The notes under the pieces: generated by a model
What the model was told of the DNA's origin: nothing
Seen by the model: the letters and a program-made list of their open reading frames with translations, nothing else
The model's database searches: none
Translations under genes and position numbers: made by a program
Shown here: piece after piece, positions 5,440 through 37,239 of the stretch
How the letters are laid out: each line of letters starts with the position of its first letter
How positions within the stretch are numbered: position 1 is the first letter of the stretch
Source of the DNA: Cyanidioschyzon merolae
Lineage: Eukaryota
DNA: 64,000 bases
Direction: 5' to 3' (one strand)
Assembly (NCBI GenBank): GCA_000091205.1
Contig: AP006497.2

Positions 5440-6186
5440 CCTGTTGCAGTGGCGTTGCCCTCGTGGGATGTCCTCTGCACGGCGCTTGCATGCGCATGCT
5501 CCCAGAGCGACCTCCATCGAGCGTCTGATTGCCATGCGACGGCATTGGTATGCAATGCGACTCCAGCGGGACACTTGTCCCTCAGAGCACGAATGCATGC
5601 GCTTGAACAATGCATGCATGTTGTGCACTGATCACTTTAGGCAATATGCAGTGATATGCCTCCAGCTCGTCGATCATTCGCCTCTATCCGAGGAGCGTCG
5701 GAAATTCGCCGCACCGCCCGTGACTTGTTCCGAGAGCGCCAGCATTCAGCGTCCAGTCGAAGACGCATGAACTAGATGCAAAGTAGGCCGGATTTGTTCG
5801 GGTTCCCATACACGCGAGCACTCGACAGAGACAGCAGTAGCGTCGTCGTCGTTGTCGTCGCATGCAAGAAAACTGGGTATCCTTTTTGCCGTGCGATTTC
5901 CAGGCACGGCGAGTGCCCGGAGCTTGCGTTCCGGCACATGGGTTTCTGCGTATCAGGTTATCGAGAAACCAGAAGAAATCTACTGAGTGTACTGGTGCAA
6001 GCTTCACGGAGAGGAATGTGCTGTTTCGAGCACTCGCATGCTCAGTTGAGCGTAGGTGCGCAACGCCGTTGCCGAGGCCGCTGGCGTTGCGCGGCGCAGC
6101 GCAGCGTTCATCCGCCATGCTGTTCGACGCTACGAAGACGCGGAGCAAGTATCGTTTTGGTGAGCACGGCAGCTGAGCGCGTCATC

Positions 6187-7014
6187 ATGAGCAGCATCTG
6201 GTCACGTTTGACAGATAAGCGAAGATCGAACAAACCAGACGACGCTTCCGGTGAGAAGTCGGATATTCTTGGAGCTGGAACCTCGTTAGACTCACGAGCG
6301 GACCCGGCACCGGACCACTTGTGGGCACAGGTCGACCAAGTTGACAGCGTCCCCGATATCGAAGAAGAGAACGGACCCCGAGTGGATTTTTCGAACTTGG
6401 ACAGAATACAAGCGGAGACTGTGGCTCCAGCGTTGGGCATTTATGCGACGCCGCGGGGCAAGTCCGGCGAAGTGGATTACTTGTTCGCGGAGGAGTATCA
6501 CGAGTATCGCCATAAGAGCTGGGGCGAGCAACTCACCTTCTGGGCAGGGGTGAGTTATTTAGGCGGTGCGATAATTGGAGGCTCGTTAGGGTTTCGTGAA
6601 GGCATCCAGAAAGGAAACGAAATGGTCGCGGAGCTTGTGTCGCCAGTGACAGGAGCTGGCGGCGGCCCCAAAGCCGCAACTTCGCTGTCAGTCTCGCATG
6701 TATCCAAGGCAAAGCTTCGACTCAACGCACTGCTCAATGCAGTAGGTCGACGCGGCGGTCGCATGGGTAATGCTGCAGGCGTCTTAGCGATCATGTTCTC
6801 GGGATTTGAGTCGTTTCTGCACTGGCTCCGCGATGACGTCGACGACTCGTGGAATTACATTGGTGCCGGAGCGCTGACTGGCGCGCTCTACAAGTCCACC
6901 GCAGGTCTACGGGCAGTGTCTATGTGGAGCGCAGGGCTGGCGACTGTCGGCCTCGTTGGCCTGTACGGAGCCAGACGAGGGGTCTACGGCCGGCGGTTAC
7001 GGCAACTGCTCTAA
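6187..7014 (+). CDS. TIM23: Mitochondrial import inner membrane translocase subunit Tim23 (Tim17/Tim22/Tim23 family)
   Basis: The C-terminal 200 aa of ORF 5776-7014 align with Tim23: GVSYLGGAIIGGSLGFREGI…RLRLNALLNAVGRRGGRMGNAAGVLAIMFSGFES…GAGALTGALYKSTAGLRA. The ATG at 6187 (MSSIWSRLTDKRRS) gives a 276-aa protein with a hydrophilic N-terminal domain, as in Tim23. The upstream part of the ORF is low complexity and probably untranslated. Confidence 0.8.
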   Translation: MSSIWSRLTDKRRSNKPDDASGEKSDILGAGTSLDSRADPAPDHLWAQVDQVDSVPDIEEENGPRVDFSNLDRIQAETVAPALGIYATPRGKSGEVDYLFAEEYHEYRHKSWGEQLTFWAGVSYLGGAIIGGSLGFREGIQKGNEMVAELVSPVTGAGGGPKAATSLSVSHVSKAKLRLNALLNAVGRRGGRMGNAAGVLAIMFSGFESFLHWLRDDVDDSWNYIGAGALTGALYKSTAGLRAVSMWSAGLATVGLVGLYGARRGVYGRRLRQLL

Positions 7015-11812: not shown

Positions 11813-13126
11813 TCAGACGTTTTCCGGATGAAATTTGAGCAGCACGCCATCAGCACCCAAGACAAATCCTCGCTGCGAGCCGAAAAATTTGATCTTATAA
11901 AGATTGGCGCCTACTTTGCTCACAAGCGGATCGCGTCGCCATGTTTTGCCGCCATCATCGCTGCGGTACATGCTTCCACCACCAACCGCTGCCCAGACGT
12001 GCCGATCGTCCTGAAAAGCGACATCCAGGATACCGTAGCCACCAGTCTTAGAATCGACCATATCGAAGGCAATCGTCTCAGTTGAATTCAGGTTCACGTT
12101 CGGCTTGGTGAACCCCAGACCGCCGCCCCTGATCGTTTCCCAAATACCTTTGGTAGCGTCATTCTGAATGAAGCCGATTGCGCTGATGCGTCGCGAAGTG
12201 GATCGAGCGTGAGGCGTCCAAAAATCGGATCCCGGCACCCAGGTGAGGAAAAAGTTACCCCTTGAAGGTATCGCGATATAATTCCCGTGAACATCGCGCG
12301 ACACGGAAACGATGCTGCCGGTGAAATAGCTCGCTCCGGTGATACCAGAGGAGATCGTTCGATTCAAGGTAGCATCAATAGTCTCCCGTACCAGCGCCTT
12401 CCAATTGATACCACCATTTTCCGTCACGTAGATGGCACCCGAGCTGGTCACCATTTCAGCGCAGTTCGGACCGAGCGCAGTAACCAGCAGTGGCTCTCCG
12501 GGTAGCTTTGGAGAGAGGAGAATACGTGACCAGTTTTTGCCCCCGTCGGTCGAACGCAACATAACCGGAGGCTTACCTATGACCCAGGCCTCATCTCCAC
12601 TGAAACTCACGTTCGAGAAACGGTAGTTCAGCTCCTCCTCACGCTCGACGTCCTCGAAAGCGCGCGGTTCCCAGGTCTCGCCTCCGTCACGCGTTTCGAG
12701 GACCAGGCCACGAGTCCCTACAAGCCAGCCGTGATTAGGATCCTTCTGGCTGAAGTCTATGTCGAAGAGCACACTCTCCGTCGGCAGCGGCACCTGTTTC
12801 CAGGCGGCGCCTCGCACGGTCTCAGCGAGCGGTGCCGCAACTAGCGCTCCGCTGCGCGGCAAAGCAACAGCTAGCGCGCCAAGAGCTAGGTGATGCAAAA
12901 GTGCTCGTCGCGAAACGCTGAATCCAAGCTGAGACTCAACAACAGTTTCCGTATAGGCGTGTACGCGCTCGCCGTCGCTCATGCAGATACGCCACCGCTG
13001 ACGGTCCCCGCTAGCTCTCTCTGCTGCTGACCTGCTTCGCAGTACCTCCGCGTTACGACACCTGCTTTTGCTGCCGTGTGCCAGCAAGCCAGCAACGTTC
13101 GTGAACGCTACAGATACTGACGTCAT
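11813..13126 (-). CDS. HCF136: Photosystem II stability/assembly factor HCF136 (Ycf48), plastid-targeted
   Basis: The mature part (WKQVPLPTESVLFDIDF…DPNHGWLVGTRGLVLETRDGGETW… repeated DGG(K/E)TW/NW β-propeller blades …GVLLKF) matches Ycf48/HCF136 across the full length. It is preceded by an RR-containing hydrophobic lumen-targeting signal (SRRALLHHLALGALAVALP…A) and an S/T/R-rich transit-like region. The start is tentatively the ATG at 13124-13126 (MTSVSVAF…); the ORF runs to 13345. Confidence 0.8.
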   Translation of the reverse strand: MTSVSVAFTNVAGLLAHGSKSRCRNAEVLRSRSAAERASGDRQRWRICMSDGERVHAYTETVVESQLGFSVSRRALLHHLALGALAVALPRSGALVAAPLAETVRGAAWKQVPLPTESVLFDIDFSQKDPNHGWLVGTRGLVLETRDGGETWEPRAFEDVEREEELNYRFSNVSFSGDEAWVIGKPPVMLRSTDGGKNWSRILLSPKLPGEPLLVTALGPNCAEMVTSSGAIYVTENGGINWKALVRETIDATLNRTISSGITGASYFTGSIVSVSRDVHGNYIAIPSRGNFFLTWVPGSDFWTPHARSTSRRISAIGFIQNDATKGIWETIRGGGLGFTKPNVNLNSTETIAFDMVDSKTGGYGILDVAFQDDRHVWAAVGGGSMYRSDDGGKTWRRDPLVSKVGANLYKIKFFGSQRGFVLGADGVLLKFHPENV

Positions 13127-13990
13127 CGCCCAATATATCCTGATCAGAGGCCCTTCTAACCACTCACCACCACCGTCCCCTAGGTCGCACAGTGCTTCTA
13201 GTGATGCGATGCAGTACAAGATGCTGGCAGCGATGTGGGCGTGAGCGCTGCGGCTTCGCAGATCGCCGCCGCTGTCGCCGCGGATGCAGCGCATCGAGGA
13301 GCCTCTGCGGCGGTGCGTTGCTAAAGTGTGAAGCGACCTGTGCATCGTCGGAGTAGGTGCAGGAGTAGGTATAGGTGTAGAGGTAGGGGGTAGGAGTCAG
13401 TTGCGTCTGGGATAGACTTGACGACATCCACTGCGTCGCTGGATCTAGCCATTATGTCTGCGAGGAACTCTTCTCTGGGATATTGAGATGCACAGGCGCG
13501 TTTCTGGGGCGATCCAAGTCTCTTTCCAGCTCTGCTGAGGCAGCGGATGCACCTCGCGGCGGTATCTGGTTCGATGCATCGATCTGACGGCATGGGAAGA
13601 CTTGCGTGGCCGGTGTCTGCTGAGCCTCGGAATTTTTGGCGGGTCTCGGGGCCAACGTTGCCTCCTGCATGGTTTGGAATCGAAGGTAATTGCGACGCTT
13701 TGCGCATGGTCACGTGGATTAGTTCGCTGGGGCATGGCTATTGCCTCTCGTTCAGACACGCGTATATGGACCGCTTTGCAGGGTGTGCCTGCGTGAAGTA
13801 GACGCTGGACCAATCGGGGGATCCTCCAAGCGTCGAGCCTCTGATATTCGCAGCTGTACTGGCGCTTATGGGGCGTCGACTCGCTTCAAGCTATTGGATC
13901 CGATTTTTCTCCCGAGCGATCGGATGATTGATACTTCCTGTCAGACACACTCGAGTACGCAAATGCTACCAGTAACCGGGACGTCAGCGC

Positions 13991-27436: not shown

Positions 27437-29629
27437 TCACGGCTCGTCTCGTGCTCGAAACTGACGAAACGCATCCAGTTCCCTGCAGCACAGTAGGAGC
27501 GCATGATCAGTCGAGCGTCCATCTTCCGTTATCGAGTCAAGGCATTGTCCACGACGCCGGCTCGAACGGGTTTCAGAATTCGTCGGAGAATCCATCGCAA
27601 ACGTGGTCGAGTCTTGCCGAACAGGTATGGAGGCAGCGGTGTAGGCCAAGAAACTCCGCTCGCCTAAAATAGCAAGGGCGCGGCGTTTGTCTGTCTCACG
27701 AAAGCGAACGATACCACGAACCTGATCGATGGTCGGAGTGCATTCCGCCAAACCTAGCAGTGACTGGTCAAGCTGGACGCTCTTTTCGGCAAATGCTCCA
27801 AACTGCTTTCGTTCAAGCATGCGGGTCAACACTTGTTCGACATCGATGCCCTCCACGATGTTTCGCTGTTCTCCGTCTTGATTTGCTGGTGCGTCCTTTG
27901 TGGACAGAGCCCCGCAACAAGCGTCAATTCTCGGTATAGGTGGCGAAACAAGACACCTCAAATCCTCTATATGGAGAGCATCACAGTGCTGTGCGAGTGC
28001 GTGTAGGTTGTGTTCCGCTATAGCCTGGTAGAAATGGTGACCACGCTGATGGGGCCGCAGATACTCGTTCGCCACGTAGCAATAGTCTTCGAGCCATTGT
28101 GGCACTTGTTGCGAAGAGCGTAAGACGTCGTCCGGATTTCCTGCTCTCACAAGGGGCCACCGAATCGTCCGGCCTGCAAGTAGATGATCGAGCAGAGCGA
28201 ACGGAGCGCGATATAGGTAGGCGTCGTACGCGCGCTCTACCCGCATATGTGAGACCCAAAGCGAGGCAGTAGCACTACGAAAAGCACATTTTTGAAGATA
28301 CCTCAAGAGTCTATGGCGCAGCGCATCAGCAGGGCTGAGAACACACGAGCAAAATGCCCTTCGAAATACGCTCGCAAATAGAATCTCGACTGCTTCAGCG
28401 TCCGTGATCCGATGAAAACGCGCTCCGAAAGGCGCACCATTCCTGCCGCGTAAAGTTCCTGCCTCCGGTTCAGAGCTGGCAAGCGATGACAACACCCTGG
28501 ACGCCGCTGGGGCCCGTGCAATCGCAGTGACCGCAGACGGCCCCGGTTTTTCAACCCAAACCTGACTGCCGGTTCCGTCGTGTGCCCTGCATCCGTTCGC
28601 AGTTTCCTGTAGGCGCAGCAGAAAAGCATCGAGACCGAAGACCACTGCGACGTACTGAAGTGCCGCACGGCTGTACTGGGCCCTGGCTTCTGCGATACGT
28701 CCCTGGCAAAGGCTCTGGGCCAAAACGAAACCGATATCCTCCCAGGTTTCCAGCGTGAGCCCCTGGACACCTAGGTAACGACCAATACAGCGTGGAGAAC
28801 TGAGCGGTGCTCCTGTGGCAACGAGTTCACTAAGCGCCGTCGACAGCTTCGACACCTCTTCGTGACGCCCCTTAGCAAGCTCGCTCTCCGCGAGTTGGGT
28901 GAACGACTCGCTTCTCGGTACCGATGCCGGAAACGAGAAATCATTCCGCTCCTGCAGCTTCTCCCATAGATTTAGGAATAGTAGTGCTCTGATAATTCGT
29001 ATCCGGTATGGATCCGCAATAACCTTCCAGAGCGCGTGTACGTGGGAGATCTCACCAGATTTCGGGTAAGGTTCAAGCATCGACAACGCAGAACTCCATC
29101 TCTGTTCCCTGTTCGTGGAGCGTGGTCTGTTTTGCCTGCAGAATACATGCCGTCGAAAGGCCAGAACATCATCCATCACATCCAATGACTGTTGCCAGCA
29201 TCCATTTTCCGCGTACCGCTCGACAAGGTACAGTTTGAGCACCTGAGTTACAAGTGTCACATCAGAAGAAAACCTCGTGTCCAAGGTTTGCTCTAGTTCA
29301 TGAACAAGCTGTTCAAGGGATGATGCGGAAAACGCACCGGTGGTGTTTATTCCGTCAAAGGTCGCATCAGAGCCGCACAGAACGCCAAGCCAGCCTGCTG
29401 GAGGCAGCTCCTGCAGCAGCCGTTCCGCAAAGTGGCCAGCAATGCCACCTGCACAGCTTTGATTAGGTTCCGCCACTTCCAGAGCCTTTCTCAGTAGGTT
29501 TATCAGCGGTTTCCATAGGGTATCCAAATAATCAACTTCGGTACTCTCTTCTCCATTTCGGAAGCGCCTAAGAAGTGAAGAAAGCTCATCAAGGTTGCGC
29601 GACACAGATAGTTCAGGCTCCACGTCCAT
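27437..29629 (-). CDS. Hypothetical α-helical protein (730 aa), no family recognised
   Basis: 2.2-kb ORF with no competing gene on the opposite strand. Protein-like composition; predicted all-α (possible HEAT/TPR-like solenoid). Confidence 0.5.
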   Translation of the reverse strand: MDVEPELSVSRNLDELSSLLRRFRNGEESTEVDYLDTLWKPLINLLRKALEVAEPNQSCAGGIAGHFAERLLQELPPAGWLGVLCGSDATFDGINTTGAFSASSLEQLVHELEQTLDTRFSSDVTLVTQVLKLYLVERYAENGCWQQSLDVMDDVLAFRRHVFCRQNRPRSTNREQRWSSALSMLEPYPKSGEISHVHALWKVIADPYRIRIIRALLFLNLWEKLQERNDFSFPASVPRSESFTQLAESELAKGRHEEVSKLSTALSELVATGAPLSSPRCIGRYLGVQGLTLETWEDIGFVLAQSLCQGRIAEARAQYSRAALQYVAVVFGLDAFLLRLQETANGCRAHDGTGSQVWVEKPGPSAVTAIARAPAASRVLSSLASSEPEAGTLRGRNGAPFGARFHRITDAEAVEILFASVFRRAFCSCVLSPADALRHRLLRYLQKCAFRSATASLWVSHMRVERAYDAYLYRAPFALLDHLLAGRTIRWPLVRAGNPDDVLRSSQQVPQWLEDYCYVANEYLRPHQRGHHFYQAIAEHNLHALAQHCDALHIEDLRCLVSPPIPRIDACCGALSTKDAPANQDGEQRNIVEGIDVEQVLTRMLERKQFGAFAEKSVQLDQSLLGLAECTPTIDQVRGIVRFRETDKRRALAILGERSFLAYTAASIPVRQDSTTFAMDSPTNSETRSSRRRGQCLDSITEDGRSTDHALLLCCRELDAFRQFRARDEP

Positions 29630-29983: not shown

Positions 29984-31654
29984 GTGGGCGAGCTGCACGC
30001 TTCAATCCAATCTGAAACCGTTGACGCGGGCGATAGCTGTAAACGCCCGACTAGAGCGACTTGGACTGCCATGGTTTACGCTCCGCTACCGCAGATTCTG
30101 CGGCGAGCAGTGGTTTGCAAACAGGAAACGTGTTTGAGTGTACTGCAGGGGTTTCGCAGCTTTAAGCGTGGACAGCATCTTTTGCTTGCGGAGACACGGT
30201 TCCGACCGGGGTTCCGACCGGCCTCGCACAAGCTCGAATCAGCTCAAAAGTTGCGGAACGAGATGAACTGGTTGCAACGCCCCAAAGGACAGGGACAGAT
30301 GTTTTGCACCGAAGCCGCCTCGAGTTCGCAGGAGAGTTCAGCCGCGAACTCGATGATTCCGCGAGTCTCCATCGCGGACTACTCTTACGAACTTCCTCCG
30401 GAGCGGATCGCCCAGTACCCGTTACCACTGCGCGATCATGCCCGCTTATTCGTGTTTGATCCTCAGCAAGGCATGCAGCATCGATTCTTTTACGACTTAC
30501 CGAGCCTGCTGCCACCCGAGAGTGTGCTCGTTGGGAACGACTCACGCGTCATCGCTGCGCGGCTACTGCTTCGTCGTGCTCCGCCCCAGACAGACTCATC
30601 TCCGCAGGCGCCCTGTGCGGCGCGTCTCGTTGAAGTTCTGTGCTTGGAACCCATCGTACCCAGCACTGACCCTGCCGTTGTCCTCAGCTGTCGCGAGCCA
30701 CCGGTGGAATGGGCATGTTGGATCGGCGGCAGGCGTGTGTTCCCCGGACTCGAGTTGCGGGGTGAGCATTTGAGAGCTCGAATTCTAGAGCGAGCAGGTC
30801 AGGAGGGCACTGTTCGTTTCGATTGGGAGCCAACGACAGCGTGTTTGAGTTTCGGTGAGCTCCTCGAGCGTGAAGGTCGGACACCGCTCCCTCCGTATCT
30901 GAACAGGGATGACACTCCGCGGGATCGCAGCGACTACCAGACCGTGTTTGCCCGGGAATCGGGGTCAGTCGCTGCACCGACTGCTGGACTGCACTTCAGC
31001 GAGGAGCTGATCAAGAAGCACTTTGAAAAACGATTCATCCGGTTTACGCTTCATGTAGGTGCGGGGACGTTTGCACCGGTAAAAGCGGCTGATATTGGTG
31101 ACCATATCATGCACCGTGAGCGAATCATTGTCCGGCGGGAGCAGCTCGTACAGCTCATTCGGGCTGTGGAGAGCGCGTCCCCGTTGGTGGCTGTCGGCAC
31201 GACCACGGTACGCATCTTGGAGAGCCTCTACTGGTACGGGTCCGCTCTATGTCGGCCAGGTGCGAAGCGAGCGCACCGAGGCGCGGCGGCTGCATTTGAC
31301 GAGCATTTGAGCTTTGTGGTCGAGCAGTGGGACCCCTATGTCCGCTCCGGTGACGTTCCCGTGGAGCATGCGTTGAGCGCTGTTCTCGACGTACTGGAGA
31401 GGAATCGCGCTTCTGAGATTCATGGATACACGAGTCTCATCATTGTTCCTGGCTATTCATTCCGGGTGGTTGATGCGCTGATCACCAACTTTCACCAACC
31501 GCGATCTACACTGCTGTTGCTCGTGGCTGCATTCTTACCGGGCGGCCGCGAAACACTCTTCCGCATCTACCACGAGGCACTGGCGCGATCCTATCGTTTC
31601 CTTTCCTATGGTGACGCCTCGTTGCTATGGAGGAAATCCGTTCAAGGCAGATAG
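29984..31654 (+). CDS. queA: S-adenosylmethionine:tRNA ribosyltransferase-isomerase (QueA), bacterial/organellar type, with an N-terminal extension of about 115 aa
   Basis: Conserved QueA blocks in order: DYSYELPPERIAQYPL…R…ARL, …GLHFSEELI…, …VAVGTTTVRILESL…, ITNFHQPRSTLLLLVAAF, RFLSYGDASLL. The catalytic core is about 440 aa and is preceded by a non-conserved leader. Confidence 0.85.
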   Translation: MGELHASIQSETVDAGDSCKRPTRATWTAMVYAPLPQILRRAVVCKQETCLSVLQGFRSFKRGQHLLLAETRFRPGFRPASHKLESAQKLRNEMNWLQRPKGQGQMFCTEAASSSQESSAANSMIPRVSIADYSYELPPERIAQYPLPLRDHARLFVFDPQQGMQHRFFYDLPSLLPPESVLVGNDSRVIAARLLLRRAPPQTDSSPQAPCAARLVEVLCLEPIVPSTDPAVVLSCREPPVEWACWIGGRRVFPGLELRGEHLRARILERAGQEGTVRFDWEPTTACLSFGELLEREGRTPLPPYLNRDDTPRDRSDYQTVFARESGSVAAPTAGLHFSEELIKKHFEKRFIRFTLHVGAGTFAPVKAADIGDHIMHRERIIVRREQLVQLIRAVESASPLVAVGTTTVRILESLYWYGSALCRPGAKRAHRGAAAAFDEHLSFVVEQWDPYVRSGDVPVEHALSAVLDVLERNRASEIHGYTSLIIVPGYSFRVVDALITNFHQPRSTLLLLVAAFLPGGRETLFRIYHEALARSYRFLSYGDASLLWRKSVQGR

Positions 31655-32425
31655 CGGCAGCGAAGCGAAGCAATTGTCGTCCGGGGAGATCTGACTTGCT
31701 ATCTTGATAGATCAGGTGGCGCTGCAGACATGCAGGGTTCCGGCAGCCGCTGCGCAGCACAATGCCAGAGTAGATTTTTTGGTAACACCAGAGTGAAACT
31801 AGCGAGCACCACACATCTGCAGGAAGCGAAACAGGTGTGCATGTTTTTGAGACAAGGGCGATATCTAGAGCGCCCTCTCGGTGCTGCCTGCTGGCGCTAC
31901 TCGTATCTGGAGCACGTCAACCGGCACCAGCATCGCAATGCACCCCAGAGAAGCGAGCTTCCAGCGACGGCTCGCTTCTGGACCCCTGTGACAGATTAGA
32001 CGCTCTGAAAACGCTCAGACCGAATTGCAAATGAACGATAGTTCCCGTTCTTGCTCGCATGCATCTACCAATGATTCGTATCAAAAGGCTCGGGTAAAAG
32101 GGGGACGCTTCGAGCTCACCTTTTAACAAGGATGACTAGACTTTGCAAGGCACCGGCTCTTCCGGCCTGCTCTGTTTCTCACCAAACGGGATTTCGATTC
32201 GAGCGTACCGCCACCGAGCACCACCCGTAGTGCCGCGAGATAACGTGGGTGCTGCCTCACGTGAAGTCTTCCGTCCATGGGCAGTCTAGACACCCAAATG
32301 GAGTTTGCTTGATAACATAGGAAAGCAAAGATTCGAATTCGGGATCTGTTCGCTCTACTTGAATCTGTGCGCGCGAGCCCTTCACGCGCACGCATCTTGA
32401 CACGCTGGTTGGTGCGTGTCTCGCC

Positions 32426-32462
32426 GCACGCATGCACGCACGCATGCATGCATGCGTGCACC
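32426..32462. repeat. Alternating purine-pyrimidine (GCAYGC)n tract, Z-DNA-prone and quasi-palindromic
   Basis: cgcacgcatgcacgcacgcatgcatgcatgcgtgcac. Confidence 0.85.
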
Positions 32463-32598: not shown

Positions 32599-34623
32599 AT
32601 GCAAATCGATGCTGAGAGATACAAGGTGACTCTTACGAGCCCGAGGTCCCTCTTATCACCACAAAACATCAAGCTGGCGTTCACACTCCCTGAACAGCAC
32701 GCTGCTGAGCATTCCTGTTCTCGCTCAGTAATCGCGCGCCACCGTTATTACGCTTTGACTGCGAATGGGGGAGCTGCGGACCAAAACATCGGCGATTCCG
32801 AGGACACACGCAAGGTGGGTGACGCTGTGCCTGACGTCGCAAATATCACCGGTGCACTGGCCTCTGGCGGTACGGCTCACGCTCGCGAGCGCTGCTACCA
32901 TGTAGCGTCTGCGATGCGGATACCCGCTAGACCAGATAAATCCGTCGTGTTATTCCGCGATCGATACGTCACACAGGACTCGTGGAAGATCTTCAACTGG
33001 GCGCCTCCATTGGCGAGCTCGTCCAAGTTTCATCTCTATACGCGAGCATCTCCTCTTCACGCAAAGCAAGTATGGACTGCGTCAGCATCCCGTCTCGGAA
33101 TGCATTGGAACGAGAACGACCCACCAGTGAGCCGCACACCGGCACCGCCCGATGCACACGAGCGCCGATCTCAAATTACCCAGGTTCTGGCGGCCGCGAA
33201 GTCGAGCCGCAGCCCCGCAAAACCTCATCCGGAGCCACCTGCGAGCGATCTTCGCTCGCCAGAATGCAGAGCGGGTGCCTTCGCAAACGCCGCGGAGCCG
33301 TTGTGGGACCAGGATGCTCGGATAAGCGCTGGTTCGAACCACGATCACATGTCACCATCCCAGGAAAGTGAGGGCATGCACGCCACGCATCCCATGGGAA
33401 CCGATGAACATATCGAGAAAGGCGCTGATCCGCTGCTTTTGGCTATGCCCATGACTCGCGCCGTCGCGAAACAGCGTCGAGCTGCGTCTCCAATGCGCGC
33501 TGAGAACGCTCGTCAGCGTGCGAATCGACTATGGGTTCCAGCGAGAATATCGCACAAGGCTTCGAAGCGGCGATCCAGTGCGGATTCGAGACAGAGGAAC
33601 GGACCTGGTTTTTCTCAAACTCGACCTGCTGAGCTGCTGATCCCCGTTGGAAAATTGCGGCCCGAATCGGAGCACCACGAAGATCCAGGACGTGTCATCA
33701 AGCCGGAAGAAATGGCTCGTATGGGTAGAGTTTTTCGGGAGCGCTTTCCAGAGCCTCCATCCGCCTTGAGCAGCATCCCATCGAGTGGCTGGTGTCTAGA
33801 GCGCATTACTGAAGAAGCAAGCGCTTGGTGGCGGCGCAACTACAGCGAGCAATCCGAGACGTGGTTCCAGCGCTGGCATGCGTACGTGCGTTTCGTGCGG
33901 CAGCGTCTCAGTCGGAGCAGGTCGAAAACCGCTCGAATTTCTGCTGGGTGCGCCCGCCGCTGGCTGGCTCAATTCCTTCGATCGAACGTCGCGGTGGATG
34001 CACACAGCGCGCCATCGAGCTCGTACACCGATCAGTCGGATGCCGCCGCTGAACGGCCAGCACAGACGCACCCAGTACCACTATCCGTGCGCAACGGTTC
34101 CATGATGAAGCGCTCGTTTGCGACGTACCCAAGTTATACACCGCAAACCAGAGCGCGATACCGCCGCTACCAGTACAGAGAATGCGATATGATCTCGCTG
34201 CCGGTGGGTTGCGATGCACGCACACTGCTGCGCTGCTTCAGCGAGGACGCACCTTTGCGCCAGGCACAGGCACTGCCTGCCAAAGAACCAGTGTGGATAC
34301 GAGGTCTGCCGGGCCAGGGCACACGACGATGGCCGGGTTACATGCTGGGCACACTGGACAGACGCCTCATTGATGTCGATGCAGGCGTTTCGCTGGTTGC
34401 AGTGCAAGCCGCTGACGGGAATCCAGAGTACGTCGCAAATGCGCAGATGTACGTTCTGCCGCAGCACCAAATAGAACCATTTCGTGCCTCCGAAGTGAAG
34501 GCAACGTTTGCAGCAGAGCTTGCTCTTCGACGGCCAGCGTCCCGCCAGAGCGCTCGATTCGAACATGCGTTCAGCGAGGTGTACGCTTTGTTTCTGCAAA
34601 ATGCTGGTTCACAATGCGTGTGA
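32599..34623 (+). CDS. Hypothetical low-complexity protein (674 aa) with a possible PWWP/Tudor-like fold near the C-terminus
   Basis: 2-kb ORF with only short antisense ORFs opposite. Ala/Arg/Ser-rich. The C-terminal segment PVWIRGLPGQGTRRWPGYMLGTLD…AQMYVLPQHQIEPF loosely resembles PWWP/Tudor-type reader modules. Weak. Confidence 0.4.
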   Translation: MQIDAERYKVTLTSPRSLLSPQNIKLAFTLPEQHAAEHSCSRSVIARHRYYALTANGGAADQNIGDSEDTRKVGDAVPDVANITGALASGGTAHARERCYHVASAMRIPARPDKSVVLFRDRYVTQDSWKIFNWAPPLASSSKFHLYTRASPLHAKQVWTASASRLGMHWNENDPPVSRTPAPPDAHERRSQITQVLAAAKSSRSPAKPHPEPPASDLRSPECRAGAFANAAEPLWDQDARISAGSNHDHMSPSQESEGMHATHPMGTDEHIEKGADPLLLAMPMTRAVAKQRRAASPMRAENARQRANRLWVPARISHKASKRRSSADSRQRNGPGFSQTRPAELLIPVGKLRPESEHHEDPGRVIKPEEMARMGRVFRERFPEPPSALSSIPSSGWCLERITEEASAWWRRNYSEQSETWFQRWHAYVRFVRQRLSRSRSKTARISAGCARRWLAQFLRSNVAVDAHSAPSSSYTDQSDAAAERPAQTHPVPLSVRNGSMMKRSFATYPSYTPQTRARYRRYQYRECDMISLPVGCDARTLLRCFSEDAPLRQAQALPAKEPVWIRGLPGQGTRRWPGYMLGTLDRRLIDVDAGVSLVAVQAADGNPEYVANAQMYVLPQHQIEPFRASEVKATFAAELALRRPASRQSARFEHAFSEVYALFLQNAGSQCV

Positions 34624-34842: not shown

Positions 34843-37239
34843 CTAGGGCGCTGGACATGGCCCGGCTTCACACGGAAATGCCTCTACGATTTCGACCGAT
34901 TCCGCCTGCAGTGCCTCCCTGATGGATTCAATGACTGATCTGGCCTTCAAAAGGGTTTCTTCGTACTCGTCTTGGGGGTCGCTGTGTGCAACAATAGCGC
35001 CGCCAACTCCGATGCTGACGCCCCAGGAGTCTTCTGGCGCATCCACACCATTGGCGTTCCGACGGCGTTCCCATACTGCAGTGCGGATGATGACGTTCCA
35101 GTCCGCATGTTGGCCGTTTGCTGAGACGTAGCCGATGCTACCACTGTAGATGCCCCGGGGCCTCTTCTCCAGCGCCTCGAGAATTTCCAGGGTTCGTTGC
35201 TTTGGCGCCCCCGTCATGGATCCCATGGGAAAACAAGCTCGAAGGACGCGCCCCAGAGGTGCAGCCCAGGTGTTATGTGGGCCCGTGTTGCGCATGGGAG
35301 ACGGCAAACGTCCCTGCACGATACTGACCAGTTGATGCACGCTAGCGAAGGTTTCGAGCCGCATGAGTTGCGGCACTTGAACGGTACCAGGTTTGCATAA
35401 TCGACCAAAGTCGTTGCGAACCAGGTCGACGATCATCAGATTCTCCGCTCGATCTTTCCGGCTGGTGCTAAGTTGGAATGCGAGGCGCGCATCCTCAGCT
35501 GGGTCAGCGCTGCGTTGTATGGTCCCCTTGATGGGTCTCGACTCCAGCATTGTTCCGTTGCGTAATAGTAAGAAACGCTCCGGCGACGCGCTGCAGATGA
35601 CTGTATCGGGGCCGAGCTGCAAGTACGCAGCGAATGGCGCCGCGTTCACACGACGTAATACCAAGTAATGGGTTAGAGGATGAAACTTGGGAGGCAGCTT
35701 CGTTGGTCGTAGTCGAAGAAGATTGGTGAGGCAGATTTCGTAGCTCTCGCCATTACGAATATATTCCAGACACGTTCGAATATCTTTGAGATACTGATCA
35801 CGAGAGCGACTCCATTCGAACTGGATAATCTTCTGGGGTGCATTCGATGACTGATCACATGGAGCATTCCTTGGTGTCTCCTGATTCCTGATTCGATCTG
35901 ATACCTGAAGATCAACCCGATTTGGCGCAGAATCCGGTGTCGTTAGGGCGCATTCGACTCGTTCTATCCACATGGCGGCGTCGCTCGGATCTGCGGAAGC
36001 CGCATCATTCGTGACGAGCAGCACCGAACCCGTCTGATGATCAAAGATCGCAAGTCGATGCACCCAACCTAGAAAAGCATCAGCCGGGTTTCGACGCCCG
36101 CTCTGACCTCCATGGGGAGCATCGAAGCTCTCCCTCTTCAGTTCGAATCCAAGATATCCAAGGTAACCTCCAATGAAAGGCGGCAGCTCATCGGATGTTT
36201 CCAGCTCCGGCCACGAAGCGGCACTGGTCGAGAGCTCTTTGTCAAGCGCTTCCCAAAACGGAAAACGAGACCCGTCCAGTGCATGACTTGACTCCCATTC
36301 GCCGATCATGCTCCAGCGCACTGCCGGCCAGCGTTCTTGTCGATACTCGTAACAAGAATCCAACCAGAACACTTGCCGATTGGGATCATTTCCATACAGA
36401 CGCAAAAACGCTTGTGCCGGTTGCGCACAGACTCGTTTTGCCTCCAGACGGTGCATCTGAACGCAACGCTGCGGTCGATGAAGCTTACCCATGACTTCTT
36501 CGTATACTGCTTGGAAACGACCTGCGTTTCCAGGGTCAGTGCTGTGGGGCACGCGCGGCGCGAGGCGCTCTACTGGGTATCCACGCTCGAGGCGATACCT
36601 CTGGGCGATACGCAGAAAATTGCGAAGGATCTGGTCACCATATTCAGTGCCTGCAGATTCTATATGAAACTGGACGCCGAAAATCGGAAACTTTTGATGC
36701 CGCACAGCCATAAGGATGCGCTCTTGCGTGTCGACATCCGTGCACCAGGCCAGTGGCTCGAGGCAGGACGGCAACGAGGCCGTCTCCGCAACCAGGGAGT
36801 GGTAGCGCACGGCGCGGAAACGAGTCGATGGAAGACCAGAAAACAGGGCCTTCTGGCTTGAGCGCTGCTCGGTTTTCTCAACGATGGCGACCTCTCCGTG
36901 AACGGGTCGCTGGGCGTGAACAACACGCCCCCCGAACGCGTGCACGATGCCCTGGTGGCCGAGACAAACGCCCAAGATGGGCGTCTGATGAAGAGAAAAA
37001 CATTCGATGACTTTGCAACAGAAGCCAAAGTCGTTCACGCGTTCAGGACGGCCTGGGCCCGGTGAAACGATGATGGCGTCAAACGGACTGGGTCCCTGTT
37101 CGCAGGTCGTAATCGACGCCAGCACCGTAGCGTCGTCGTGCCGAACGACAACTGGAAGTTGGCCTCCATCTACAATGCCGACTAACTGGCACAAGTTGTA
37201 GGTATAAGAGTCGTAGTTATCAATTATAAGAACGCGCAT
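34843..37239 (-). CDS. Bifunctional aminodeoxychorismate synthase (PabA glutamine amidotransferase fused to PabB chorismate-binding domain), folate biosynthesis
   Basis: N-terminal MRVLIIDNYDSYTYNL…GVCLGHQ…FGVQFHIES is a class-I GATase with a Cys-His catalytic dyad context. C-terminal …PMGSMTGAPKQRTLEILEALE…RGIYSGSIGY…GVGGAIVAHSDPQDEYEETLLKA is a chorismate-utilising enzyme domain. 798 aa in one ORF. Confidence 0.9.
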   Translation of the reverse strand: MRVLIIDNYDSYTYNLCQLVGIVDGGQLPVVVRHDDATVLASITTCEQGPSPFDAIIVSPGPGRPERVNDFGFCCKVIECFSLHQTPILGVCLGHQGIVHAFGGRVVHAQRPVHGEVAIVEKTEQRSSQKALFSGLPSTRFRAVRYHSLVAETASLPSCLEPLAWCTDVDTQERILMAVRHQKFPIFGVQFHIESAGTEYGDQILRNFLRIAQRYRLERGYPVERLAPRVPHSTDPGNAGRFQAVYEEVMGKLHRPQRCVQMHRLEAKRVCAQPAQAFLRLYGNDPNRQVFWLDSCYEYRQERWPAVRWSMIGEWESSHALDGSRFPFWEALDKELSTSAASWPELETSDELPPFIGGYLGYLGFELKRESFDAPHGGQSGRRNPADAFLGWVHRLAIFDHQTGSVLLVTNDAASADPSDAAMWIERVECALTTPDSAPNRVDLQVSDRIRNQETPRNAPCDQSSNAPQKIIQFEWSRSRDQYLKDIRTCLEYIRNGESYEICLTNLLRLRPTKLPPKFHPLTHYLVLRRVNAAPFAAYLQLGPDTVICSASPERFLLLRNGTMLESRPIKGTIQRSADPAEDARLAFQLSTSRKDRAENLMIVDLVRNDFGRLCKPGTVQVPQLMRLETFASVHQLVSIVQGRLPSPMRNTGPHNTWAAPLGRVLRACFPMGSMTGAPKQRTLEILEALEKRPRGIYSGSIGYVSANGQHADWNVIIRTAVWERRRNANGVDAPEDSWGVSIGVGGAIVAHSDPQDEYEETLLKARSVIESIREALQAESVEIVEAFPCEAGPCPAP

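What the first reader, a model, noticed from the sequence alone, without database searches (positions are those of the whole stretch)
29984..31654. Bacterial-type queuosine-biosynthesis enzyme QueA encoded in a eukaryotic nuclear context, with a ~115-aa leader
Eukaryotes generally do not make queuosine de novo; they salvage queuine and insert it with TGT. A full-length, intact QueA with all conserved blocks in a eukaryotic chromosome implies an organellar, plastid-type de novo or finishing pathway. The non-conserved N-terminal extension (MGELHASIQ…MFCTEAASSSQESSAANSMIPR) would fit a transit peptide. Alongside the HCF136 gene, this points to a plastid-bearing host.
Basis: partly seen in the sequence, partly recalled or inferred. 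Interest (0 to 1): 0.5.

Follow-up and report, generated by a model that had tools for sequence, protein, structure and literature searches.

The report
Red-alga nuclear QueA gene, already annotated
The finding is real but already known: it is the annotated nuclear gene of the red alga Cyanidioschyzon merolae for a bacterial-type queuosine (tRNA modification) enzyme with an organelle-targeting leader, more likely mitochondrial than plastid and not of cyanobacterial origin.

Summary
The ORF is real and intact. From its first ATG (30071, not the GTG at 29984) it encodes 527 aa that are 100% identical to C. merolae 10D XP_005537686.1/BAM81650.1, "similar to S-adenosylmethionine tRNA ribosyltransferase". 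The window is clearly a eukaryotic, plastid-bearing nuclear chromosome, and the gene is syntenic in two other Cyanidiales genomes, so it is not contamination.

The core is QueA by Pfam, by predicted fold, and by 44 of 49 residues that are invariant in canonical QueAs. A leader of about 94 aa is basic, disordered and fast-evolving. Its reading frame stays open in all three species.

The plastid/cyanobacterial reading is not supported:
- The nearest relatives are a "long-type" QueA subfamily of Bacteroidota, Kapabacteria, Ignavibacteria and Chlorobi.
- In Bacteroidales this subfamily coexists with canonical queA.
- The leader lacks the red-algal Phe motif and is poor in Ser/Thr.
- Orthologues in Porphyridium, Cyanidium and Galdieria carry mitochondrial-looking presequences.
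- A 2025 paper already describes mitochondrial BL-TGT/QueA/QueG in Chloropicon and red algae.

Published predictions for the partner TGT disagree (plastid versus mitochondrion), so the compartment is unresolved. I could not search for partner genes in this genome. Interest is low to moderate. The untested function of the long-type subfamily is the only open angle.

The parts
30071..31654 (+). Single-exon coding sequence (stop codon included) of the C. merolae 10D QueA-family protein, 527 aa
   Evidence: The translation is 527/527 identical to BAM81650.1/XP_005537686.1. Pfam PF02547 matches at E=7.8e-92. The AlphaFold2 core has pLDDT >90, and Foldseek matches only the QueA structures 1VKY/1YY3/1WDI at E about 1e-22 to 1e-24.
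29984..30070 (+). It is most likely 5' UTR.
   Evidence: The ORF tool starts at a GTG. The annotated protein and metagenomic orthologues start at MVYAPL. The ATG at 30071 sits in the context GCCATGG.
30071..30352 (+). N-terminal leader (aa 1-94), a presumed organelle-targeting presequence
   Evidence: There is no homology to bacterial QueA. pLDDT is below 50 for residues 1-87. The first 40 aa carry a net charge of +5 with only one acidic residue. Only this frame is free of stops, in all three Cyanidiales species, with an upstream in-frame Met 96, 87 and 97 aa before the core. Four of the six amino-acid differences from a 99.5%-identical metagenomic strain fall in the leader.
30198..30221 (+). 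12-nt tandem repeat (GGTTCCGACCGG x2, encoding FRPGFRPG) inside the leader
   Evidence: Tandem Repeats Finder. Metagenomic variants P0275 and P0283 carry a third copy, in frame.
30353..31651 (+). Conserved QueA catalytic core (aa 95-527)
   Evidence: It aligns end to end with bacterial long-type QueA proteins. Of 49 residues invariant in seven canonical QueAs from five phyla, 44 are retained. NCBIfam NF001140 scores 321.9 bits against a cut-off of 324.
31229..31411 (+). Insertion of about 60 aa (aa 387-447) that defines the 'long-type' QueA subfamily. It is absent from the Thermotoga, Thermus, Bacillus and E. coli QueA proteins.
   Evidence: There is a gap in the PDB alignments between query (ORF numbering) 415 and 477. 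The insertion is shared with Bacteroidota, Kapabacteria and other eukaryote sequences, with Q419 and W420 invariant. It is modelled as helices plus a strand; confidence dips to about 58 in one 10-residue block.
30578..30625 (+). Loop specific to Cyanidioschyzon/Cyanidiococcus (aa 170-185, APPQTDSSPQAPCAAR) in the N-terminal domain
   Evidence: It is present in the window, P0002 and P0003, shorter in Cyanidium, and absent in bacteria. pLDDT dips to about 70.

Best explanation
This is the known nuclear gene of Cyanidioschyzon merolae 10D for a QueA-family S-adenosylmethionine:tRNA ribosyltransferase-isomerase.

Shown here: translation from ATG 30071 gives a 527-aa precursor. It consists of a basic, disordered, rapidly evolving leader of about 94 aa and a 433-aa catalytic core. 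The core has the QueA fold and almost all residues that are invariant in canonical QueAs. It belongs to the 'long-type' QueA subfamily, which carries an insertion of about 60 aa. Apart from other algae, its closest relatives are in Bacteroidota, Kapabacteria, Ignavibacteria and Chlorobi. The gene is old and fully domesticated: it has host-like codon usage and is syntenic across Cyanidiales.

Inferred: the leader imports the enzyme into an organelle. I favour the mitochondrion (about 0.5) over the plastid (about 0.3). There, a bacterial-type TGT of chlamydial origin first puts preQ1 at position 34 of the organelle-encoded tRNAs Asp, Asn, His and Tyr. The enzyme then transfers and isomerises the ribosyl moiety of SAM onto preQ1 to give epoxyqueuosine. 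QueG or QueH, if present, would reduce this to queuosine. preQ1 would be salvaged or made locally. This step was not tested.
For: - Identity: the product is 100% identical to XP_005537686.1.
- Family: Pfam E=7.8e-92. PDB QueA sequences match. The AF2 model has mean pLDDT 82.6 with the core above 90, and Foldseek hits only QueA structures. 44 of 49 canonical invariant residues are kept.
- Residency: eukaryotic neighbours, conserved synteny in two other genomes, and codon usage like the neighbours.
- Leader is translated: the frame is open for at least 115 codons upstream of the core in three species that are only 65% identical in the core. Chance is about 0.025 per species. The other frames contain stops.
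- Leader character: net +5 in the first 40 aa, disordered, and fastest-evolving part of the protein.
- Mitochondrial lean: Porphyridium has the leader MRVTRACASLLRLAQSLRAS. Cyanidium and Galdieria have Arg/Lys-rich leaders. Nannochloropsis and Teleaulax orthologues show no signal peptide, which a complex-plastid protein would need. Chloropicon and Galdieria QueA, BL-TGT and QueG are published as predicted mitochondrial (PMC12301720). The chlamydial TGT was called putatively mitochondrial (PMC2376095).
- Partner: a chlamydial-type TGT was reported from the C. merolae genome (PMC2530860).
Against: - No targeting predictor could be run. The leader is only moderately amphipathic (maximum hydrophobic moment 0.46) and starts with 10 uncharged residues including Tyr3, which could mimic the red-algal aromatic motif.
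- Huang & Gogarten list the C. merolae TGT as plastid.
- The deposited gene models of the two closest orthologues (P0002, P0003) start only 11-22 aa before the core, so their leaders rest on my re-reading of the DNA.
- TGT, QueG/QueH, YhhQ and QueC-F could not be searched for in this genome. None is in the window.
- The protein falls just below both NCBIfam QueA equivalog cut-offs (321.9 vs 324; 258.6 vs 267.45).
- It belongs to a subfamily that is a paralogue of canonical queA in Bacteroidales. I found no report of its activity in the searched library.
Confidence: 0.65

Rival explanations
1. One reading: the enzyme is plastid-targeted and belongs to a plastid (cyanobacterium-derived) queuosine pathway acting on plastid-encoded GUN tRNAs.
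For: The host is plastid-bearing (Ycf48/HCF136). The leader begins with about 10 uncharged residues with Tyr at position 3, close to the M-x-F motif of glaucophyte and red-algal transit peptides. Huang & Gogarten 2008 list the C. merolae chlamydial queuine tRNA-ribosyltransferase as 'Plastid'.
Against: - No cyanobacterial sequence appears among the named closest relatives.
- The leader has no Phe before residue 28, is poor in Ser/Thr (3 of the first 40) and is rich in Arg/Lys.
- Orthologues in lineages with complex red plastids lack a signal peptide.
- Porphyridium, Cyanidium and Galdieria leaders look mitochondrial.
- Published predictions for Chloropicon and Galdieria are mitochondrial.
- The same TGT clade occurs in plastid-less Dictyostelium.
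Confidence: 0.25
2. The long-type protein is not a true QueA. It would be a paralogue with a different substrate or product, and the eukaryotic copy would have inherited that different function.
For: - B. finegoldii, P. distasonis and Phocaeicola each carry both a canonical queA (in a truB-queA-folK-metK cluster) and a long-type gene elsewhere.
- The split between long-type plus eukaryotes and canonical QueA has 100% NJ bootstrap.
- NCBIfam equivalog cut-offs are narrowly missed.
- Long-type genes are not next to tgt or que genes in 80 Bacteroidota loci.
- They recur as fusions with EPSP synthase, NUDIX and HPPK.
Against: - 44 of 49 canonical invariant residues, and all SAM- and substrate-associated motifs, are kept.
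- Some long-type members are named QueA by PGAP.
- One long-type contig carries QueC and QueF 4-5 kb away.
- In Chloropicon the red-alga-like QueA lies next to the preQ0/preQ1 transporter YhhQ and co-occurs with BL-TGT and QueG.
- The algae reported so far have only this QueA.
Confidence: 0.1
3. The protein is made from a downstream ATG (Met77 'MFCTE' or Met95 'MIPRV') and has no targeting peptide. It would then act in the cytosol.
For: Deposited models of Cyanidiococcus and the third Cyanidiales genome start 11-22 aa before the core. Some metagenomic gene calls start at MFCTE (P0281).
Against: - The first ATG has the best context, GCCATGG; the later ones have C or T at -3.
- Met95 is Leu in a 99.5%-identical strain.
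- The upstream frame is kept open in all three species, with a Met at a similar distance.
- Cytosolic tRNAs of eukaryotes receive queuine directly, so no preQ1-tRNA substrate is expected there (established knowledge).
Confidence: 0.07
4. The gene is a bacterial contaminant or a recent, non-functional transfer.
For: The closest non-algal homologues are bacterial.
Against: It lies between eukaryotic genes and is syntenic in three genomes. Its codon usage is host-like. The ORF is intact and the core is conserved at 65% identity across Cyanidiales.
Confidence: 0.01

Closest known systems
Bacterial-type queuosine salvage/finishing pathway (BL-TGT, QueA, QueG, YhhQ) of Chloropicon and red algae (Genome Biol Evol 2025, PMC12301720)
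   Same: It is a nuclear-encoded QueA with an N-terminal extension. That paper states that red-algal proteins are the closest relatives of Chloropicon QueA. The expected chemistry and the organellar tRNA substrates are the same.
   Different: The paper highlights Galdieria and does not analyse C. merolae. Localisation there is predicted only. I could not show QueG or YhhQ for C. merolae. The paper does not mention that the algal QueA belongs to a paralogous long-type subfamily.
Canonical bacterial QueA (E. coli b0405; B. subtilis 1YY3; T. maritima 1VKY)
   Same: Same Pfam family, same fold and same motifs. 44 of 49 invariant residues are kept.
   Different: Identity is only about 30-33%. The window protein has an extra insertion of about 60 aa and an extra loop. 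It forms a separate clade with 100% bootstrap, scores just under the NCBIfam equivalog cut-offs, carries a eukaryotic leader, and has no adjacent tgt.
Long-type QueA-like proteins of Bacteroidota, Kapabacteria, Ignavibacteria and Chlorobi (about 400-420 aa)
   Same: Identity is 40-47% over the whole core. The insertion with invariant Q and W is shared, and the length is similar.
   Different: The bacterial proteins have no leader. In Bacteroidales they coexist with canonical queA, and some are fused to EPSP synthase, NUDIX or HPPK. The exact donor lineage is unresolved because the deep nodes of the NJ trees have no support.
Eukaryotic queuine salvage (QTRT1/QTRT2 eTGT plus QNG1)
   Same: Same end product (Q34 on GUN tRNAs).
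   Different: That route inserts the finished base queuine in one step and needs no QueA. The present enzyme implies a preQ1-tRNA intermediate, and therefore a bacterial-type TGT.

Membership tests
QueA / Pfam PF02547 Queuosine_synth | Significant full-length match to the family profile | tested here: met
   308.3 bits against a gathering score of 25, E=7.8e-92, covering profile positions 2-249 plus the C-terminal part.
QueA / Pfam PF02547 Queuosine_synth | QueA fold | tested here: met
   In the AF2 model 368 residues have pLDDT >=90 and pTM is 0.81. The only significant Foldseek PDB hits are 1VKY, 1YY3 and 1WDI, at E=7e-24 to 8e-22 with target-normalised TM 0.59-0.65.
QueA / Pfam PF02547 Queuosine_synth | Conservation of residues invariant in canonical QueAs | tested here: met
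   44 of 49 columns invariant in seven canonical QueAs from five phyla are identical in the window protein. 42 of 49 are identical in all six eukaryotic sequences.
QueA equivalog (NCBIfam NF001140 / TIGR00113) | Score at or above the curated whole-protein cut-off | tested here: not met
   321.9 vs 324 bits and 258.6 vs 267.45 bits. Both are narrow misses, caused at least in part by the insertion splitting the match.
Canonical (short) QueA clade | Groups with canonical QueA in a tree and lacks the ~60-aa insertion | tested here: not met
   The split between long-type plus eukaryotes and canonical QueA has 100% of 500 NJ bootstraps. Canonical QueA of Bacteroides falls on the other side. The insertion is present.
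QueA (functional definition, EC 2.4.99.17) | Converts preQ1(34)-tRNA plus SAM to epoxyqueuosine-tRNA | not testable with these tools
   This needs an enzyme assay or complementation of a queA mutant.
Bacterial-type Q pathway in one genome | Co-occurrence with bacterial-type TGT and QueG/QueH (and a preQ1 source) in the same genome | not testable with these tools
   No such gene is in the 64-kb window, and the whole genome could not be searched. In the literature, a chlamydial-type TGT was found in the C. merolae genome (PMC2530860). QueG is reported for Galdieria and Chloropicon, not explicitly for C. merolae.
Red-algal plastid transit peptide | Phe within the first few residues; Ser/Thr-rich and acid-poor leader | tested here: not met
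   The leader starts MVYAPLPQIL, with Tyr3 and no Phe before residue 28. Only 3 of the first 40 residues are Ser or Thr. The motif rule comes from PMC2222254. An aromatic Tyr3 leaves some room for doubt.
Plastid (cyanobacterial) ancestry | Closest bacterial relatives are cyanobacteria | tested here: not met
   Every named relative is Bacteroidota, Kapabacteria, Ignavibacteria or Chlorobi, among the best 120 hits, 150 cluster representatives and 80 GTDB genomes. No cyanobacterial sequence could be put in a tree.
Mitochondrial presequence | Basic, acid-poor, amphipathic N-terminus; orthologues likewise | tested here: inconclusive
   Net charge is +5 in the first 40 aa with one acidic residue, and the maximum hydrophobic moment is 0.46. 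Orthologue leaders in Porphyridium, Cyanidium and Galdieria are clearly basic. No dedicated predictor was available.

The most novel reading that the evidence does not exclude
The 'QueA' of red algae, Chloropicon, eustigmatophytes and cryptophytes is not canonical QueA. It is a member of a separate long-type subfamily that is a paralogue of queA in Bacteroidales, where it is unlinked to tgt and recurrently fused to EPSP synthase, NUDIX or HPPK. If that subfamily has a different substrate or product, the organellar pathway of these algae would make something other than standard queuosine. Even if it is a true QueA, the algal pathway would be a mosaic of at least two bacterial donors: an FCB-type QueA plus a chlamydial TGT.
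Probability: 0.12. Interest if true: 0.6.

Novelty: already known. Interest (0 to 1): 0.25.

Why it matters
Textbooks say eukaryotes only salvage queuine, so a nuclear QueA shows that some algae keep a bacterial-style on-tRNA finishing pathway in an organelle. That point has already been made: the gene is annotated in C. merolae 10D, and red-algal and Chloropicon QueA/BL-TGT/QueG were described in 2025.

Three things remain open. First, which organelle is involved, because published predictions conflict. Second, whether C. merolae has the reductase step and a source of preQ1. Third, whether the long-type QueA subfamily really has QueA activity. C. merolae is genetically tractable, so all three are directly testable. 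None of them would be a major surprise.

Tried and rejected
- Contamination or recent transfer: rejected on eukaryotic neighbours, three-genome synteny and host-like codon usage.
- GTG start at 29984: rejected in favour of ATG 30071.
- Cyanobacterial or alphaproteobacterial origin: no support. Sinorhizobium and Magnetococcus QueA are short-type and more distant. I could not obtain a cyanobacterial QueA sequence. The GTDB scan used patterns biased towards the long type, and PLSDB held none.
- Resolving the donor lineage and eukaryote monophyly with NJ trees: deep nodes have 0-47% bootstrap, so no conclusion.
- Sequence conservation among the three Cyanidiales leaders: none found.
- Partner Q genes in the window: none among 20 large ORFs, and no tRNA genes.
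- Finding a chlamydial Tgt seed in PLSDB to retrieve the C. merolae TGT: none present.
- Inferring the function of the long type from bacterial gene context: 80 loci gave only a weak DUF2027-Smr association and no Q genes. One contig has QueC and QueF 4-5 kb away.
- Literature on a QueA paralogue, or on QueG in algae: nothing found.
Full report
**Observation**

The window holds an uninterrupted ORF at 29984-31654 on the + strand.
- It matches Pfam PF02547 (Queuosine_synth) at E=7.8e-92.
- It matches the three solved QueA proteins (T. maritima 1VKY, T. thermophilus 1WDI, B. subtilis 1YY3) at E=2e-61 to 2e-50, with every canonical motif present.
- An AlphaFold2 model built on 65 homologues has pLDDT above 90 over most of the core. 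Foldseek against the PDB returns only those QueA structures as significant hits.

The listed start, however, is a GTG picked by bacterial ORF rules. The first ATG is at 30071, in the context GCCATGG. The 527-aa product from that ATG is 527/527 identical to BAM81650.1/XP_005537686.1, 'similar to S-adenosylmethionine tRNA ribosyltransferase' of Cyanidioschyzon merolae 10D. The window is thus C. merolae nuclear DNA, and the gene is already annotated.

**Context**

The large ORFs in the window are unmistakably eukaryotic and plastid-related:
- a Tim17/22/23-family protein;
- CLP1;
- DNA primase small subunit;
- Ycf48/HCF136;
- an MRS2-like protein;
- a PabA-PabB fusion;
- cohesin SCC3/STAG;
- an RRM protein.

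GC content is flat across the window. The GC3 and codon frequencies of QueA are like those of its neighbours. The local gene order is 730-aa gene (-), QueA (+), 674-aa gene (+), PabAB (-). It is conserved in Cyanidiococcus yangmingshanensis and in a third Cyanidiales assembly, where the QueA core is only 65-66% identical. Contamination or a recent transfer is excluded.

**The leader**

The bacterial-homologous core begins at about aa 95 (MIPRVSIADYSYELP). The 94 residues before it have no homologue in bacteria. They are modelled as disordered (pLDDT below 50 for residues 1-87). The first 40 residues carry a net charge of +5 with a single acidic residue.

The deposited models of the two closest orthologues start only 11-22 aa before the core. 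I re-read their DNA:
- The QueA frame stays open for at least 115 codons upstream of the core in all three species.
- The other two frames contain stops.
- Each species has an in-frame Met 96, 87 or 97 residues before the core, followed by an Arg-rich sequence.
- An open stretch of that length has about a 2.5% chance per species.

The three leaders share no detectable sequence similarity. Four of the six amino-acid differences between the window and a 99.5%-identical hot-spring strain fall in the leader. One of them changes Met95 to Leu, which rules out that Met as the start. A 12-nt tandem repeat (FRPGFRPG, 30198-30221) varies between two and three copies among strains. All of this is typical of a translated, weakly constrained targeting peptide.

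**Which organelle**

I had no targeting predictor, so this part is inference.

Against a plastid:
- The red-algal and glaucophyte transit-peptide rule requires a Phe in the first few residues (PMC2222254). It is not met: the leader starts MVYAPLPQIL, with Tyr3 and no Phe before residue 28.
- The leader is poor in Ser/Thr.
- Eustigmatophyte and cryptophyte orthologues have no signal peptide, which complex red plastids require.

For a mitochondrion:
- Porphyridium QueA has a short textbook presequence (MRVTRACASLLRLAQSLRAS).
- Cyanidium and both Galdieria proteins have Arg/Lys-rich leaders.
- The one paper that treats eukaryotic QueA predicts mitochondrial BL-TGT, QueA and QueG in Chloropicon and in red algae, 'most notably Galdieria' (PMC12301720).
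- Moustafa et al. call the chlamydia-derived TGT of red algae putatively mitochondrial (PMC2376095).
- Becker et al. place Dictyostelium, which has no plastid, next to the plant sequences in that TGT tree (PMC2490706).

Against that, Huang & Gogarten list the TGT found in the C. merolae genome as 'Plastid' (PMC2530860), and Tyr3 could serve as an aromatic motif. My estimate is mitochondrion about 0.5, plastid or dual about 0.3, other about 0.2.

**Origin and family placement**

The best 120 hits among 5.8 billion proteins run as follows:
- Cyanidiales (99%, 66%, 65%);
- Cyanidium (49%);
- an unnamed eukaryote-like sequence (P0005);
- bacterial proteins of 400-450 aa, whose names are all Bacteroidota, Ignavibacteria or Kapabacteria.

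A HMMER scan of 1.84 billion cluster representatives gives the same picture. The neighbours I could name are Bacteroidia, Kapabacteria, Ignavibacteria and Chlorobi. The 80 best GTDB genomes are all Bacteroidota or Kapabacteria, although the search patterns favoured this subfamily. These proteins share with the algal ones an insertion of about 60 aa after the VGTT..R.LES motif.

A tblastn search of PLSDB, which contains mislabelled chromosome pieces, showed that Bacteroides finegoldii, Parabacteroides distasonis and Phocaeicola massiliensis each carry two QueA-family genes:
- a canonical queA of about 350 aa, in a truB-queA-folK-metK cluster, 28-31% identical to the alga;
- a long-type gene of about 405 aa elsewhere, 37-41% identical to the alga.

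In a tree of 22 sequences, the split between long-type plus all six eukaryotes and canonical QueA has 100% bootstrap. The canonical side includes the Bacteroides copies and two alphaproteobacteria. The deeper order inside the long-type clade is unresolved, as is eukaryote monophyly.

The algal gene is therefore neither cyanobacterial nor alphaproteobacterial in type. It is an orthologue of a bacterial QueA paralogue. Consistent with this, it narrowly misses both NCBIfam QueA equivalog cut-offs.

**Is the long type still a QueA?**

In favour:
- Of 49 alignment columns invariant in seven canonical QueAs from five phyla, 44 are identical in C. merolae and 40 in all long-type bacteria sampled. The chemistry is very probably the same.
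- Bacterial gene context is uninformative. There are no Q genes within 3 kb in 80 loci, and only a weak DUF2027-Smr association.
- One contig with an HPPK-long-type fusion carries QueC and QueF 4-5 kb away.
- In Chloropicon the red-alga-like QueA lies next to the preQ0/preQ1 transporter YhhQ and co-occurs with BL-TGT and QueG.

Against:
- The long type coexists with canonical queA in Bacteroidales.
- It recurs as fusions with EPSP synthase, in four separate 50% clusters.

I rate a divergent function at about 0.1.

**Mechanism proposed**

Shown: the gene, its start, the precursor architecture, its family and subfamily, and its residency.

Inferred: import into an organelle and removal of the leader. 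There the enzyme would transfer and isomerise the ribosyl moiety of SAM onto the aminomethyl group of preQ1 at position 34 of organelle-encoded tRNA Asp/Asn/His/Tyr. This would give epoxyqueuosine and release adenine and methionine, which is the established QueA chemistry (summarised in PMC5699537). The step upstream would be a bacterial-type TGT of chlamydial origin. The step downstream would be QueG or QueH.

Not tested: whether C. merolae has QueG/QueH, YhhQ or QueC-F. None of these is in the window, and the tools could not search the genome.

**Comparison and novelty**

The gene is annotated in GenBank. The presence of QueA, BL-TGT and QueG in red algae was published in 2025. The finding is therefore already known. 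The only points not seen in the searched literature are:
- the long-type/paralogue placement;
- the likely N-terminal truncation of the Cyanidiococcus and GCA_041825655 gene models;
- the conflict between published localisation predictions.

Interest is low to moderate.

Noticed in passing
PLSDB loci L086-L090 (B. finegoldii, P. distasonis, P. nigrescens): Bacteroidales carry two QueA-family genes. One is canonical queA, in a truB-queA-folK-metK cluster. The other is a long-type paralogue elsewhere, often next to a DUF2027-Smr gene. Each of these records shows only one tgt.
   Followed up: partly
Proteins P0182, P0192, P0208, P0230 (811-856 aa), P0209, P0254; loci L095-L097: Long-type QueA domains occur fused to EPSP synthase (four separate 50% clusters), to NUDIX and to HPPK/FolK. 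The HPPK-fusion contig carries QueC and QueF 4-5 kb away. The organisms are unnamed metagenomic bacteria.
   Followed up: partly
L003:5773-6000 and L004:5770-6000: The deposited QueA gene models of a Cyanidiales assembly (GCA_041825655) and of Cyanidiococcus yangmingshanensis probably start too far downstream. An in-frame upstream Met adds a basic leader of 76-77 aa.
   Followed up: partly
window 11813-13345 (-): Ycf48/HCF136 (PF14870, E=1e-116) has about 177 aa ahead of the domain. This stretch includes an 'SRRALL' motif plus a hydrophobic segment that looks like a thylakoid-lumen signal. The true start may be the internal Met of 'MTSVSVAF', which fits the red-algal Phe motif.
   Followed up: no
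window 34843-37239 (-): This is a PabA-PabB fusion (GATase, anthranilate-synthase N and chorismate-binding domains), i.e. aminodeoxychorismate or anthranilate synthase type. The GATase domain starts at residue 4, so there is no targeting leader, unlike plastid ADC synthase of plants.
   Followed up: no
window 27437-29629 (-) and 32599-34623 (+): Two long ORFs (730 and 674 aa) have no Pfam match. They flank QueA and are syntenic in Cyanidiococcus and the third Cyanidiales genome, so they are lineage-specific conserved genes of unknown function.
   Followed up: no
window 5776-7014 (+): This Tim17/Tim22/Tim23-family protein has its domain only at residues 257-390. The ORF has an N-terminal extension of about 250 aa, or the true start is further downstream.
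   Followed up: no
window 32425-32461: A (GCAT)n / 12-mer microsatellite lies in the 945-bp intergenic region downstream of QueA. It produces spurious 'MHACMHAC' ORFs on both strands.
   Followed up: no
Proteins P0289, P0314-P0318, P0249, P0143, P0327: Long-type QueA is also encoded in Nannochloropsis and other probable eustigmatophytes (unnamed close relatives P0314-P0317), the cryptophyte Teleaulax amphioxeia, Porphyridium purpureum, and Galdieria partita and G. sulphuraria. The gene is therefore spread across red algae and red-plastid lineages.
   Followed up: partly
Protein P0144 (474 aa): A short-type QueA has an exact internal duplication of about 150 residues. It is probably an assembly artefact.
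   Followed up: no
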